A DNA stretch of 64,000 nucleotides from Candidatus Saganbacteria bacterium (lineage in GTDB: Bacteria; Margulisbacteria; WOR-1; XYC2-FULL-46-14): NCBI GenBank assembly GCA_013202975.1, contig JABMQY010000136.1, positions 6,178 through 70,177 on the forward strand. Reading direction: 5' to 3'. The position numbers and the translations under genes are program-made. Shown one piece after another: positions 30,363 to 52,193 of this stretch; the stretch's first letter is position 1; every line of letters begins with the position of its first letter. The notes under the pieces are model-generated. The model had not been told where the DNA came from, did no database searches, and saw only the letters and a list, made by a program, of their open reading frames with translations.

Positions 30363-30410
30363 TTTGTAACTTCCCGTAACCTCCCGTAACACCTCGTAAC
30401 ATCCCGTAAC
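30363..30410. repeat. Five direct repeats of ..CCCGTAAC with exact 10-bp periodicity between the divergent FGE-like and secreted-protein genes
   Basis: GTAAC at 30366, 30376, 30386, 30396 and 30406. The same repeat unit recurs upstream of the second FGE paralog at 52151. Confidence 0.5.
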
Positions 30411-30430
30411 CTTATGCTATAATTATCTAT

Positions 30431-31099
30431 ATGAAATACCGGCTGATAACAATATTAATGCTAGTATGCTTTTCTACTTCTGCTTTTGCCTTTAGCGCTC
30501 CGCCAAAAAAACCAATTCCCCAAAAATCCTCTTCTGTTTCGGTCATTGTTGATAATTTTGAAGATGGAAGTATAACCTCCGATCCGGAATGGTGGCAGTT
30601 TGACACAATAATTCTTATGCATCAAAACAATCCCGCAAAGGGGGCTCTGGCCCTATCTGTTGAGGGGAAGGCAAGTGATTGGTATGTCGGGGGACTTGGA
30701 ACCTATCTTGCAAAAGCAGAGCAGGATTTCTCTTTTTATAGTTTTCTGGAGATGGATGTTTATGGCTATGGGGCAGACAGCGGAATGCTAAAGATTGAGT
30801 TATACGAGGATGATAACAATAACTGGCAGATTGAACAGAATCCAAAAAAGGGCTACCTGCCTATTTTTGACGACCGTTTTTCCTATGAATTAAAAATAGA
30901 CTGGATAGGATGGAAACAGGTAAAAATTCCTTTTTCCGATTTTGTGGACTCAAACCCAAAATCAGGAGACAATATCTGGAATCCCCAAAAAATCGGAGAC
31001 TCCGGCGGTCTGCTTCAGATGCAGCTAATCGCTCTGGCAACCAACAAGACCGGCTCGGTCCATTTTTTAATCGACAACCTTCGTTTCACTTCGCCGTAA
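30431..31099 (+). CDS. Secreted protein (222 aa) with predicted beta-sandwich, CBM-like/CIA30-like character
   Basis: Clear signal peptide MKYRLITILMLVCFSTSAFA. TATAAT 7 nt upstream of the ATG. Confidence 0.45.
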   Translation: MKYRLITILMLVCFSTSAFAFSAPPKKPIPQKSSSVSVIVDNFEDGSITSDPEWWQFDTIILMHQNNPAKGALALSVEGKASDWYVGGLGTYLAKAEQDFSFYSFLEMDVYGYGADSGMLKIELYEDDNNNWQIEQNPKKGYLPIFDDRFSYELKIDWIGWKQVKIPFSDFVDSNPKSGDNIWNPQKIGDSGGLLQMQLIALATNKTGSVHFLIDNLRFTSP

Positions 31100-31110
31100 C
31101 CAAAATCGCT

Positions 31111-31144
31111 TGAAATTTTTCAAAACTGCTCACGATATAAAAAC
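31111..31144 (+). promoter_or_regulatory. TGAAATTT-N14-CGATATAAAAAC motif; ATG 31145 12 nt after CGATAT (leaderless)
   Basis: Motif copy. Confidence 0.55.
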
Positions 31145-32938
31145 ATGACAATCATTCCGGCAGCAAGAAGAATCACAACAGATGTCCTGCGACCAAATAC
31201 GCCGATTAAAATAATCAGTAAAATGTCACCTAGCGAGGTGGACAGACAAATCCATGGAGATAAAACAGCTGGGCTGGTCAGACTCCATAATATTGATTTT
31301 GACTCGCCCGATGTTATTCCGGTAGACGGATTTGTCGTTCCCACAAATATTGATCCGGTTGTTGGGAGGGTGCACATCTTTGATGCCTTTAATGCACTAA
31401 CTATGGATGTTACAGAAAAAGCGGTCTTAATGGCGCGGGGATCAAAGTTTCAAGAAGAGTCGGGAGAGACAGAGACCTTGTTCACACTGTTTGATCCAGC
31501 AAGAATGAGGACAAGTCTTGACGCATTCTACAAGGCGATCCTCTCTATTTTGAATCCCCAAAACAATACCGCAGTGATTGGACAGTTTATGGTGGGGACC
31601 CTTGAAAACAACCCTAAAAAAATCCGAAGGAAATCGTTTTCATTTGATTTCAATGAAAGAATGTTTGAACTAAGTTTTATTACAGCAAAGCTTAAGGAAA
31701 TTGCTGCGAGCTATCCGGGCGACGAAGTAGGGTTTGGCATTTCGTGTGAGACCGTTCTCGTGCAAACCAGGGCTATTCAAATAGAGATCGATCGGGATAA
31801 TCTTGAAAAGACTGCGCAAGAAATACTTGATAAAATAAAAGATAAAGAAGCGGGATGGATCCCTGAAGAGGCTCTCCCTGACCTTAGGGCGACCCATTTT
31901 TATATTGAGACACCAGAATATTATGAAGATGTTAATACAATTGGTTTTGAAAACACCACCTTCTACACCTTTGCTCCAGACCCAGATTCTCCCAAAAATA
32001 TATTAGTAGACTTTATCAAAGGCCTGGGATTTCAAACACTTTCAAAAAGAGGCAACACCTTTGCTTTGTCTTTAGACGGCAAAACTTTAGACCTTGTAGA
32101 TTATCTAATACACTTAAATCCAGAAGAAAATAGTATTAGGAGCGGATTCAGACAAAACCGACATCTATACTTTGAAATTACTGGAGCCGGGCTCAAATTA
32201 AAAGAAGATACGATATCAGGCAAATTTCCAATACATATCATAGATACCATGGAAAGAGCAGACATCTCTCCTCCAATACCCTTCATAATGTCATTACAAG
32301 AGATGGAGAGGCTGGGGACCGTTGCCCGAGAGGTTCATCAACAGCAAGAGGCACCGATTTTAACTGAGGGAACAGAGCTAGATAAAAAGGTCTATTTATA
32401 TCAGTTGGAACAAACATCAATTGATCCCAAAATTCCTCTTGAGCTTTCGAGCAATGAGGGGAGGCTGCATCTTGCCAGCAGAAAAACCTTGGGGATCTGG
32501 AACGGCAGAATTAACCTTCTTTTGTGTCTTAGTAATTTGAATGAAAAGATAACCGGGTTAACCCCTTTTCTTGAAATATTAAAAAGAGATTATAGCGATC
32601 TTCCTCTTGGCTTTTATAGTGACCTGGCCTTTGGTTGTAAACTTGGAGAGCGAGCACAAGGAGATGAATTTATTCTAGAACATTACAACCTATCTCTCTT
32701 TGCAACTAATCGAACTTATTCTCCGGGCGACCATGTGACGAGCCGAATTAGAAAATGGATAAAAGAGGGGCGGCCGATAACTTTTATGCAGGGAATTCGT
32801 TTCCCTGAATATTTCGAAGAGGATGCCCTACAAAAGGCTGACCGTATAATTATGCAACAAGAAGGTTTAGTAACAGCCTTTGTGGTACGAGATGTTTTGG
32901 TAGAATCAGACGGTTCAAAGAGTCAAATTCTTTTTTAA
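31145..32938 (+). CDS. Hypothetical protein (597 aa); first gene of a three-gene operon
   Basis: Long ORF; no confident motif. A weak GS..ETE stretch is not sufficient to call a nucleotidyltransferase. Confidence 0.55.
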   Translation: MTIIPAARRITTDVLRPNTPIKIISKMSPSEVDRQIHGDKTAGLVRLHNIDFDSPDVIPVDGFVVPTNIDPVVGRVHIFDAFNALTMDVTEKAVLMARGSKFQEESGETETLFTLFDPARMRTSLDAFYKAILSILNPQNNTAVIGQFMVGTLENNPKKIRRKSFSFDFNERMFELSFITAKLKEIAASYPGDEVGFGISCETVLVQTRAIQIEIDRDNLEKTAQEILDKIKDKEAGWIPEEALPDLRATHFYIETPEYYEDVNTIGFENTTFYTFAPDPDSPKNILVDFIKGLGFQTLSKRGNTFALSLDGKTLDLVDYLIHLNPEENSIRSGFRQNRHLYFEITGAGLKLKEDTISGKFPIHIIDTMERADISPPIPFIMSLQEMERLGTVAREVHQQQEAPILTEGTELDKKVYLYQLEQTSIDPKIPLELSSNEGRLHLASRKTLGIWNGRINLLLCLSNLNEKITGLTPFLEILKRDYSDLPLGFYSDLAFGCKLGERAQGDEFILEHYNLSLFATNRTYSPGDHVTSRIRKWIKEGRPITFMQGIRFPEYFEEDALQKADRIIMQQEGLVTAFVVRDVLVESDGSKSQILF

Positions 32939-32939
32939 C

Positions 32940-51077: not shown

Positions 51078-51082
51078 TAATG

Positions 51083-51203
51083 AAACATCAAACTTCAAGC
51101 ATCAAAATCCAAAATAAATCCAAACTTCAAATTTCCAAAGCCCAACTTTTTGAGGTTGGTATTTGGGATTTTGGATTTGTTTGGATGTTGGGTGTTTGAT
51201 GTT
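51083..51203. repeat. Long imperfect inverted repeat (~120 nt, CAAA-rich left arm / TTTG-rich right arm) after the mnmE stop; element family copy 1
   Basis: AACATCAAACTTCAAGCATCAAAATCCAAAATAAATCC..GGATTTTGGATTTGTTTGGATGTTGGGTGTTTGATGTT. Homologous to 58244..58375. Confidence 0.45.
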
Positions 51204-51261
51204 GGGATTTCCCTCTGAAAGAGGGCTGTGGATAACTTGTTGATAACTTAAGGAGGTAAAA

Positions 51262-52134
51262 ATGGGACAAATAATTGATGGGAAAAAATGCGCAAAGGAA
51301 ATTCGTGAGTCATTAAAGGTTGGAGTAGGGGAGTTGGAGAATCAGTTAAAAATAACTCCCAAGTTGGCGGTCGTTTTAATTGGAGATGATCCTGCCTCGT
51401 CCATTTACGTTAGGCACAAAGAAAAGGCTTGTGCTGAGGTTGGAATACTAACCGATACCCACAAATTTTCCTCTAATGTCGAGGAAAATGTGATCCTTAC
51501 GCTGATCGAATCCCTGAATCGTGAAAAGGATGTCCATGGGATCCTGGTGCAATTGCCTCTGCCAAAGCAGCTTCATGCTAAAAAGATATTGGCTGCAATT
51601 TCTTATGAGAAAGATGTTGATGGTTTGCACATCGAAAATATGGGAAGGCTATTGAAAGGGGAGGACCCTCTCTTTTTTCCCTGTACTCCGTCTGGAATAA
51701 TGCATTTAATTTTATCCACAGGCACAGAGATAAAAGGGAAAGAGGCCGTTGTAGTTGGAAGAAGTAATATTGTTGGTAAACCGATGGCATTGATGCTTTT
51801 GTCGAAGCATGCTACTGTCACAATTTGTCATTCCAGGACAACTGATTTGCCTGCTGTTTGTAGTCGTGCCGATATCCTTGTTGCTGCAGTTGGCAGGGCG
51901 CAAATGGTGAAAGAGAATTGGGTAAAAGAAGGCGCAGTTGTTATTGATGTTGGAATGAATCGCCTTCCTCCTCTGCCAGGCGAGAAAAAGGGAAAGCTGG
52001 TTGGTGATGTTGATTTTGATGCGGTCAGTAAAAAGGCTTCTTTTATCACTCCGGTCCCGGGTGGCGTAGGGCCGATGACGATTGCTATGTTGTTGAAGAA
52101 TACGGTGTTGTCGGCTAAGCGGTCAATTCTTTAA
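51262..52134 (+). CDS. folD: Bifunctional methylenetetrahydrofolate dehydrogenase/cyclohydrolase
   Basis: ..IIDGK..A..IR, GRSNIVGKPMA, PVPGGVGPMT are FolD motifs. Confidence 0.85.
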   Translation: MGQIIDGKKCAKEIRESLKVGVGELENQLKITPKLAVVLIGDDPASSIYVRHKEKACAEVGILTDTHKFSSNVEENVILTLIESLNREKDVHGILVQLPLPKQLHAKKILAAISYEKDVDGLHIENMGRLLKGEDPLFFPCTPSGIMHLILSTGTEIKGKEAVVVGRSNIVGKPMALMLLSKHATVTICHSRTTDLPAVCSRADILVAAVGRAQMVKENWVKEGAVVIDVGMNRLPPLPGEKKGKLVGDVDFDAVSKKASFITPVPGGVGPMTIAMLLKNTVLSAKRSIL

Positions 52135-52150
52135 TTCTACTAATAATTAA

Positions 52151-52193
52151 GTTACGGGAAGTTACGAGATGTTACTGAGCAACCTCCCGTAAC
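52151..52193. repeat. Three direct 10-bp-phased repeats GTTACGGGAA / GTTACGAGAT / GTTACTGAGC plus an inverted CCCGTAAC copy upstream of the second FGE-like gene
   Basis: Same repeat unit as 30363..30410. Confidence 0.45.

What the first reader, a model, noticed from the sequence alone, without database searches (positions are those of the whole stretch)
30363..52193. 10-bp-phased GTTACGGGA repeat arrays upstream of both FGE/SUMF1-like paralogs
Five CCCGTAAC repeats with exact 10-nt period lie at 30366-30410, immediately upstream of the -35-like octamer of the minus-strand FGE-like gene. Three phased repeats plus one inverted copy lie at 52151-52193 upstream of the second FGE-like gene (52247). 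Helical phasing on one DNA face is typical of cooperative binding by a response regulator or iteron-binding protein. Sharing it between two paralogs, but not with other regulon members, suggests a second, gene-family-specific control layer.
Basis: seen in the sequence. Interest (0 to 1): 0.6.

Follow-up and report, generated by a model that had tools for sequence, protein, structure and literature searches.

The report
Phased GTTAC repeats upstream of two genes
Two unrelated-looking "FGE-like" genes of an uncultured Saganbacterium each carry, just upstream of an otherwise standard promoter, a row of GTTACGGGA units spaced exactly one DNA turn apart; this is most likely the docking site of one still-unidentified regulator protein, an ordinary kind of gene switch in a little-studied phylum.

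Summary
Five GTAAC units at an exact 10-nt period lie at 30366-30410. Three direct plus two inverted units lie at 52151-52193. These are the only such arrays in 64 kb (6 phased pairs against 0.06 expected). They sit upstream of the only two FGE-sulfatase-domain genes in the window. Four other assemblies of the same species carry identical arrays. The core GTTAC is near-invariant, the next four bases are about GGGA, and the tenth base is free, which is a binding-site signature.

The arrays are therefore the only element specific to these two genes.

Synteny shows that FGE1, its promoter and its array form a lineage-specific insertion between ompH and a CBM-like gene. The CBM-like gene's own extended -10 promoter is conserved in relatives that have no array.

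Five FGE1 orthologs (48-62% identity, other genomic contexts) lack arrays. FGE2 has no orthologs. No regulator is encoded in the window.

Best reading: a cooperative, helically phased operator or activator site for an unidentified direct-repeat-binding factor (OmpR/PhoB or RpaB-like architecture). Novelty is a new member of a known kind, and interest is modest.

The parts
30366..30410 (-). Site 1 array: five units on the minus strand (GTTACGGGAT, GTTACGAGGT, GTTACGGGAG, GTTACGGGAA, GTTACAAATA) at an exact 10-nt period, reading towards FGE1.
   Evidence: Identical in L204-L206.
30327..30357 (-). FGE1 promoter of the genome's general type: TGAAATT (30357..30351), N16, GATATAAT (30334..30327). 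The proximal GTTAC unit ends 8 nt upstream of TGAAATT.
30298..30321 (-). Perfect 10-4-10 palindrome ACCATGAACC-N4-GGTTCATGGT at the start of the FGE1 leader. It is shared only with the leader of gene 36666.
29438..30280 (-). FGE1: a 280-aa cytoplasmic protein with an FGE-sulfatase fold and no catalytic Cys pair. It is a lineage-specific insertion between ompH and the CBM-like gene.
30415..30433 (+). Extended -10 promoter (TGCTATAAT) and first ATG of the divergent CBM-like secreted protein gene (30431-31099). The array spans about -21 to -65 of this promoter.
   Evidence: The same TGnTATAAT plus 7-10 nt plus ATG is present in the array-less relatives L207 and L208.
52151..52193 (+). Site 2 array: three direct units (GTTACGGGAA, GTTACGAGAT, GTTACTGAGC), then two inverted units (GCAAC at 52179-83 and CCCGTAAC at 52186-93), all on a 10-bp grid. 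The junction GTTAC-TGA-GCAAC is a near-palindrome.
   Evidence: Identical in L203.
52201..52243 (+). FGE2 promoter of the general type: upstream TTGAAAAT, TGAAATT (52213-52219), N16, GATATAAA (52236-52243).
52256..53110 (+). FGE2: a 284-aa protein with an FGE-sulfatase fold. It has no ortholog below 1e-20 other than itself.

Best explanation
The two arrays are cis-regulatory protein-binding sites. Each is a row of GTTACGGGA half-sites, one per helical turn, on which an unidentified sequence-specific factor oligomerises cooperatively along one face of the DNA.

The most likely binder is a winged-helix OmpR/PhoB-type response regulator or another direct-repeat binder. It would sit just upstream of the standard promoter of each of two lineage-specific FGE-fold genes. 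From about -46 to -100 it would most likely recruit RNA polymerase (class-I-type activation). This adds a control layer specific to these two genes on top of the genome's uniform promoter.

At site 1 the same bound oligomer covers the -35 zone of the divergent CBM-like gene, so it could couple that gene's expression to FGE1, by repression or by class II activation.

Shown: the sequence features, their statistics, their placement, and their stability across assemblies. Inferred: protein binding, cooperativity, the identity of the factor, and the sign of regulation.
For: 1. The arrays are non-random and exclusive: 6 phased pairs against 0.06 expected, all at the two sites. They are the only arrays with period 8-12 in 64 kb.
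2. The units show a binding-site conservation pattern. Positions 1-5 (GTTAC) are conserved in 49 of 50 cells, positions 6-9 are about GGGA, and position 10 is free. Site 2 has inverted copies, which slippage cannot make.
3. Gene association: only the two PF03781 genes in the window have arrays, and only 2 of 18 canonical promoters do. Random placement on both would have probability about 1/153.
4. Geometry: the direct units read towards the gene at both sites. Unit centres lie 11, 21, 31, 41 and 51 nt (site 1) and 22, 32, 40, 50 and 60 nt (site 2) upstream of the T of TGAAATT. That is the same helical face within 1 bp, in the zone where upstream activators act. For comparison, RpaB HLR1 activates when centred at -66 to -45 (PMC6525291).
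5. The array came with FGE1. The syntenic relatives L207 and L208 have ompH directly divergent from the CBM-like gene, with the same extended -10 and no array.
6. The arrays are identical in four other assemblies.
Against: - No candidate regulator is encoded in the window. It holds only an XRE-HTH protein at 288-743 and an orphan histidine kinase at 40868-41911.
- The arrays are absent from five FGE1 orthologous loci and from about 67 kb of DNA from related lineages. There is therefore no evolutionary conservation beyond strain level.
- The distance from the direct units to the promoter differs by 29 bp between the two sites, and the site architectures differ (5 direct units against 3 direct plus 2 inverted).
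- The helical-phase agreement (within 1 bp) and the shared orientation are individually weak evidence (p about 0.3 and 0.5).
- The rest of this genome could not be searched.
Confidence: 0.55

Rival explanations
1. The arrays are relics or functional ends of a mobile or replicative element that delivered the FGE-fold genes. They would be iterons, partition sites or recombinase arm-type sites rather than transcription-factor operators.
For: FGE1 is a lineage-specific insertion, and FGE2 has no orthologs. Viral contigs carry very similar clusters next to replication genes. L209 has six phased GTTAC units with the same unit, GTTACGGGAT, upstream of a gene weakly similar to a replication initiator. 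L216 has clusters right after a primase/helicase gene.
Against: There is no rep, par, integrase or transposase gene beside either site. An array lies on only one side of each gene. At the FGE1 3' end the repeat is a different 8-mer, and the FGE2 3' end overlaps rseP. L209 lacks the Saganbacterial promoter type, so it is probably from another host. With many 10-bp arrays in viral data, a chance match of the 8-mer unit is plausible. The arrays abut complete host-type promoters at a consistent helical phase.
Confidence: 0.12
2. The arrays are neutral tandem duplications (a slippage-born minisatellite) with no function. Their occurrence at two FGE-like genes is coincidence.
For: There is no conservation in orthologs. 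This genome has other short intergenic tandem repeats: AAGTGTAA x4 at 29407-29437 and heptamer runs at 51156-51208 and 58246-58374.
Against: The same unit occurs at two loci 22 kb apart, next to the only two members of one gene family. The core is invariant while the spacer varies. Inverted units are present. Copy number is identical in 4-5 assemblies.
Confidence: 0.1
3. The arrays are a protein-independent DNA-structure element. Sequence phased at 10 bp would give intrinsic curvature that acts like an UP element on the adjacent promoters.
For: The period is an exact 10 bp, and the arrays lie directly upstream of the promoters.
Against: The units contain no A-tracts. The other 16 canonical promoters do without such an element. 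The near-invariant 5-mer core points to sequence-specific recognition.
Confidence: 0.07
4. Site 2 is mainly an RNA hairpin at the 3' end of folD, acting as a terminator or stabiliser. Its resemblance to site 1 is secondary.
For: The direct and inverted units can pair: -16.2 kcal/mol, z = -2.2. The site starts 17 nt after the folD stop codon.
Against: There is no U-tract, and the terminator scan finds none. The z-score is modest. Site 1 is purely direct and lies upstream of both of its promoters, so it is not transcribed in any obvious way.
Confidence: 0.05

Closest known systems
RpaB / HLR1 of Cyanobacteria, the sister phylum (OmpR-family response regulator)
   Same: HLR1 consists of direct repeats with a (G/T)TTAC core at a 10-bp period (8-nt repeat plus 2 nt). 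It acts upstream of the promoter, activating when centred at -66 to -45 (PMC6525291).
   Different: HLR1 is one pair of repeats, and its 3' half is A(T/A)(T/A). Here there are 5 units, and the 3' half is GGGA. No RpaB-like gene was seen, and none could be searched for.
OmpR sites F1-F3 and C1-C3, and PhoB/PhoP, ArcA and SARP multi-direct-repeat operators (from my own knowledge of these systems; ArcA papers were listed)
   Same: These are runs of 2-6 or more half-sites (GTTAC/GTnAC-like in OmpR, GlnR and AfsQ1) at a 10-11-bp period. They lie between about -40 and -100 or over the -35 element. Binding is cooperative and head-to-tail.
   Different: The cognate regulator is unknown here. Inverted units are present at site 2. 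The period is an exact 10 bp rather than the 11 bp of PhoB, PhoP and ArcA.
Phage or plasmid iterons and operators (viral contigs L209 and L216)
   Same: They use the same GTTACGGGA-type unit at 10-bp phasing, in mixed direct and inverted copies.
   Different: In the viral contigs the clusters flank replication genes. In the window they flank FGE-fold genes and have no replication module.
MraZ operators (TGGGN repeats with 5-nt spacers; from my own knowledge)
   Same: They are arrays of direct repeats at a 10-bp period next to a promoter.
   Different: The motif is different, and MraZ operators lie upstream of mraZ and the dcw cluster, which is not the context here.

Membership tests
OmpR/PhoB-type response-regulator operator array | Two or more half-sites of 5-8 bp in direct repeat at a 10-11-bp centre-to-centre spacing | tested here: met
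   There are 5 units at site 1 and 3 direct units at site 2, at an exact 10-bp spacing.
OmpR/PhoB-type response-regulator operator array | Placement adjoining or overlapping the -35 region of a regulated promoter | tested here: met
   The arrays end 8 nt (site 1) and 19 nt (site 2) upstream of the TGAAATT element. Site 1 overlaps the -35 zone of the + strand promoter. The promoters are predicted, not mapped.
OmpR/PhoB-type response-regulator operator array | A cognate winged-helix response regulator that binds the repeats | tested here: inconclusive
   No response regulator is encoded in the 64-kb window; there is only an orphan histidine kinase at 40868-41911.
RpaB HLR1 motif | Consensus (G/T)TTACA(T/A)(T/A)-N2-(G/T)TTACA(T/A)(T/A) | tested here: not met
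   The GTTAC core and the 10-bp period match. Positions 6-8 are GGG/GAG rather than A(T/A)(T/A) (against PMC6525291).
Replication-origin iterons | A repeat cluster adjacent to, or inside, a replication initiator gene, with an AT-rich unwinding region or DnaA boxes | tested here: not met
   There is no rep gene at either site. The chromosomal DnaA boxes lie elsewhere, at 47000-47050 and 51227-51249.
Intrinsic terminator (site 2) | A GC-rich hairpin followed by a U-tract | tested here: not met
   A hairpin is possible (-16.2 kcal/mol), but there is no T-run and the scan finds none.
Formylglycine-generating enzyme proper (for the two genes) | An FGE-sulfatase fold plus the paired catalytic cysteines after the RGGSW motif | tested here: not met
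   PF03781 is present, but there are no cysteines in that region. The best hit among solved structures for FGE1 is the non-catalytic SUMF2. All NCBIfam hits fall far below their cut-offs.
Contingency-locus or VNTR promoter repeat | Copy number varies between closely related strains | tested here: not met
   Copy number is identical in L203-L206. These are consensus assemblies only.

The most novel reading that the evidence does not exclude
The arrays are host-borne 'decoy iterons' that act as infection sensors. Viruses such as L209 and L216 use GTTACGGGA clusters with their replication proteins. The host would have placed the same sites in front of two FGE-fold (FGS-type, conflict-system-like) genes. 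In that case an incoming element's iteron-binding protein would switch those genes on, or be titrated by the arrays.
Probability: 0.03. Interest if true: 0.85.

Novelty: new member of a known kind. Interest (0 to 1): 0.3.

Why it matters
If this reading is right, it gives a concrete and testable operator motif (GTTACGGGA at a 10-bp period) and a two-gene mini-regulon in Saganbacteria. This is an uncultured sister lineage of Cyanobacteria for which, as far as the one literature search made here shows, no transcription-factor site has been described. It also shows that specific control is layered onto an unusually uniform genome-wide promoter. The motif could be used in DAP-seq or pulldown experiments to find its regulator, and so give a hint to the function of the cysteine-less FGE-fold proteins. 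It would not change any general concept of bacterial regulation.

Tried and rejected
1. Metagenome scan for CGTAAC-N4 x3. The 66 true 10-bp arrays recovered are heterogeneous. None is beside an FGE-like gene, and only one OmpR-like ORF turned up, a marginal hit (E = 1.3e-4) about 3.4 kb from the array in L140.

2. Genome-collection scan with an FGE1 family profile. Only five loci came from the same lineage, and none had arrays.

3. Autoregulation by a DNA-binding N-terminal domain of the FGE-fold proteins. The AlphaFold model was too poor to use (pLDDT 57). Nothing in Pfam, PDB or NCBIfam covers residues 1-90. The idea is neither supported nor excluded.

4. PADLOC defence models. There were no hits for FGE1 or FGE2.

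5. The array as the -35 substitute needed by the CBM-like gene. This is rejected as the primary role, because array-less relatives keep the same extended -10 promoter.

6. A host link for L209 through the Saganbacterial promoter motif. There were 0 matches.

7. Literature searches for a GTTAC 10-bp regulator and for Saganbacterial promoters returned nothing specific.
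Full report
OBSERVATION

The repeats are present as described, with small corrections.

- At site 1 the + strand reads tttGTAACttcccGTAACctcccGTAACacctcGTAACatcccGTAAC (30366-30410). That is five GTAAC units at an exact 10-nt period, three of them CCCGTAAC.
- At site 2 the + strand reads GTTACgggaaGTTACgagatGTTACtgaGCAACctcccGTAAC (52151-52193). That is three direct units and two inverted units on the same 10-bp grid.
- GTAAC-N5-GTAAC occurs 6 times against 0.06 expected, always in these two sites. CCCGTAAC occurs 5 times against 0.79 expected, always in these sites.
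- An exhaustive scan for exact 5-mer arrays of 3 or more units with period 8-12 finds only these two in the 64-kb window, and only two short arrays with unrelated units in about 67 kb of DNA from related lineages.
- When the ten units are aligned, GTTAC is conserved in 49 of 50 cells, positions 6-9 are about GGGA, and position 10 is free.
- Independent assemblies of the same species carry base-identical arrays: two JGI samples and one SRA run for site 1, and one JGI sample at 99.7% identity for site 2. The arrays are not assembly artefacts, and their copy number is stable.

CONTEXT

The organism is an uncultured Candidatus Saganbacteria bacterium (Margulisbacteria, formerly WOR-1). This follows, and from protein P0072, which is 100% identical to the window protein and carries the NCBI locus tag HQ564_10545.

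The window spans the chromosomal origin region: dnaA-dnaN-dciA-gyrB-HK-gyrA and rnpA-yidC-jag-mnmE-folD.

The two flanking genes, 29438-30280 (-) and 52256-53110 (+), both carry Pfam PF03781. They are the only such genes in the window. They are only 28% identical over 99 residues. Neither has the catalytic cysteine pair of true formylglycine-generating enzymes. The closest solved relative of FGE1 is the non-catalytic SUMF2. 'FGE-like' therefore describes a fold, not a function.

THE '-35-LIKE OCTAMER' IS THE GENERAL PROMOTER

TGAAATT-N16-GATATAA occurs 17 times with up to 2 mismatches, against 1.8 expected. A slightly looser scan gives 18-21 copies in front of all kinds of genes. The consensus is aaAAtT-N5-TGAAATTT-N15-ACGATATATATATAG.

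Both FGE-like genes have this promoter, at 30357..30327 (minus strand) and 52213-52243 (plus strand). The same promoter type is kept by FGE1 orthologs in other Saganbacteria. It is therefore not a regulon signature. The GTTAC arrays are the only element that sets these two promoters apart. None of the other 16 canonical promoters has a 10-bp periodic upstream region.

WHICH GENE DOES SITE 1 SERVE?

Site 1 lies in a divergent intergenic region. On the + strand it is followed directly by TGCTATAAT (an extended -10 at 30415-30423) and, 7 nt later, by the ATG of a secreted CBM-like protein (30431-31099).

Synteny resolves the question.

- In two relatives (L207 and L208; the CBM-like protein is 66-67% identical) the gene order is GT4-lpxD-ompH, then divergently CBM-like, a 277/294-aa protein and pth, then ygaP and gyrA.
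- Compared with these, the window has two extra blocks. One is FGE1 with its promoter and array, between ompH and the CBM-like gene. The other is three genes at 31145-36579.
- The relatives keep the TGnTATAAT plus 7-10 nt plus ATG arrangement for the CBM-like gene, with no GTAAC repeats.

The array therefore belongs to the FGE1 block. The CBM-like promoter does not need it, although a protein bound there would cover about -21 to -65 of that promoter and could affect it. Site 2 is unambiguous: folD ends at 52134 on the same strand, and only FGE2 lies downstream.

GEOMETRY

At both sites the direct units read towards the FGE-like gene.

Measured from the T of TGAAATT, unit centres lie 11, 21, 31, 41 and 51 nt upstream at site 1. 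At site 2 they lie 22 and 32 nt (inverted units) and 40, 50 and 60 nt (direct units) upstream. All are on the same helical face within 1 bp.

With transcription starts estimated 7 nt after the -10 hexamers, the arrays span about -46 to -90 for FGE1 and about -57 to -99 for FGE2. This is the zone where upstream (class I) activators act. For the cyanobacterial OmpR-type regulator RpaB, whose HLR1 site is a pair of (G/T)TTACA(T/A)(T/A) repeats separated by 2 nt (also a 10-bp period), sites centred at -66 to -45 activate and sites over the transcription start repress (PMC6525291).

The agreement in phase and orientation is consistent with this reading but statistically weak on its own. The direct units sit 29 bp further from the promoter at site 2 than at site 1.

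COMPARATIVE TESTS

- Five loci encoding FGE1 relatives of 48-62% identity (L001, L002, L003, L201, L202) keep the general promoter but have no GTAAC repeats. They lie in different genomic contexts.
- FGE2 has no relative below 1e-20 other than itself.
At this evolutionary distance, and without synteny, it says only that the arrays are young or lineage-specific.
- The rest of the source genome could not be searched. My single metagenome scan was largely wasted on (CGTAA)n microsatellites. The genuine 10-bp arrays it returned from other taxa have no FGE-like neighbour, and the only OmpR-like ORF among them is a marginal hit (E = 1.3e-4) some 3.4 kb from the array in L140.

VIRAL LOOK-ALIKES

A scan of viral contigs with a pattern of 21 specified bases gave five hits, and a second pattern gave three further contigs.

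- L209 has six phased units with the same unit (GTTACGGGAT x3, and so on). These are followed by a sigma-70-like promoter, then further GTTACG/CGTAAC units including a perfect palindrome, then a gene weakly similar to replication initiators.
- L216 has GTTACGGGA clusters immediately after a primase/helicase gene.

These look like iterons or operators of replication modules. L209 lacks the Saganbacterial promoter type. Given the abundance of 10-bp arrays in phage DNA, a coincidence of the 8-mer unit is plausible. I treat these as analogues showing that GTTACGGGA arrays can be protein-binding sites, not as evidence of homology.

MECHANISM

Most likely (about 0.55), the arrays are operators for one sequence-specific factor that binds a half-site per helical turn and oligomerises along one DNA face. 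This is the architecture of OmpR, PhoB, PhoP, ArcA, RpaB and SARP sites. The factor would control the two lineage-specific FGE-fold genes, probably by activation, given the placement upstream of complete promoters. At site 1 there may be a coupled effect on the divergent CBM-like gene.

Shown: the sequence, the statistics, the placement, the stability and the insertion history. Inferred: binding, cooperativity, the family of the factor and the sign of regulation. No candidate regulator lies in the window.

Rival readings, each discussed with its evidence in its own section:
- mobile-element or iteron relic (0.12);
- neutral minisatellite (0.10);
- intrinsic curvature (0.07);
- folD 3' hairpin for site 2 (0.05; hairpin of -16.2 kcal/mol, z = -2.2, no U-tract).

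VERDICT

In kind, this is an ordinary phased direct-repeat operator, so it is a new member of a known class. Its interest comes mainly from lying in an unstudied phylum and from offering a ready bait sequence. Interest 0.3.

Noticed in passing
window, e.g. 31111-31140, 36592-36621, 15160-15189, 58202..58173 (17-21 sites): The genome has a general promoter with an unusually strong and long consensus: aaAAtT-N5-TGAAATTT-N15-ACGATATATATATAG. It often ends only a few nt before the start codon, giving short or absent leaders. It is also present in other Saganbacteria (L001, L002, L201, L202, L207).
   Followed up: partly
window 30298-30321 and 36632-36653: A near-identical palindrome, CCATGAACC-N4-GGTTCATGG, lies directly downstream of the -10 in just two promoters: FGE1 and the 281-aa gene at 36666 (2 hits against 0.01 expected). 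It is absent from the orthologous leaders in L207 and L208. It is either a shared operator or a 5'-UTR hairpin. It links FGE1 to gene 36666 but not to FGE2.
   Followed up: partly
window 51078-51222 and 58240-58384: Two similar hairpin elements of about 130-145 nt lie in intergenic regions. Each has a C/A-rich arm and a G/T-rich arm built of heptamer runs. As RNA they fold at -44 to -52 kcal/mol (z -4 to -6).
   Followed up: partly
window 46990-47050 and 51227-51249: DnaA boxes (TTATCCACA, TTATCAACA, TTGTCCACA) lie next to dnaA. A second pair (TGTGGATAACTTGTTGATAACT) lies just before the folD ribosome-binding site. The cumulative GC-skew minimum is at about 44-46 kb. Together these suggest that oriC is in this window, possibly in two parts.
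   Followed up: no
window 29407-29437 (minus strand): An 8-bp tandem repeat, TTACACTT x4, lies immediately 3' of FGE1 and upstream of the ompH promoter (GCGAATT-N16-GATATAAT). It is another promoter-upstream tandem array, with a different unit and period.
   Followed up: no
window 31145-36579: A lineage-specific three-gene block is absent from the syntenic relatives L207 and L208. It encodes an unknown 597-aa protein, a protein with a metallo-beta-lactamase fold plus two cNMP-binding domains, and a DUF6687 protein. The cNMP-binding domains hit the PADLOC Pycsar effector models. The block may be a cyclic-nucleotide-sensing defence or signalling module next to FGE1.
   Followed up: partly
L209 1055-1245 (minus strand); L216 about 10400-10560: Viral contigs carry GTTACGGGA arrays in direct and inverted copies next to replication genes: a gene weakly similar to a replication initiator in L209, and a primase/helicase in L216. 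They are probably iterons or operators with the same unit as the window's arrays.
   Followed up: partly
window 30415-30433; L207 5975-5989; L208 5985-6003: The CBM-like secreted protein gene has a conserved extended -10 (TGnTATAAT) 7-10 nt before its first ATG. This suggests a leaderless mRNA. Gene callers start it at a later Met (P0072 is 213 aa against 222 aa).
   Followed up: partly
window 40868-41911 (minus strand): An orphan histidine kinase (HisKA plus HATPase_c, 347 aa) is wedged between gyrB and gyrA, with no response regulator nearby.
   Followed up: no
L002 3550-3800: The FGE1 ortholog in another Saganbacterium has an AGACCGTC-like 8-mer tandem (about 4 copies) upstream of its promoter. 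It also has a long repeat-rich leader (CTGTG x3 and ACATAG repeats). This may be an analogous but unrelated regulatory decoration.
   Followed up: no
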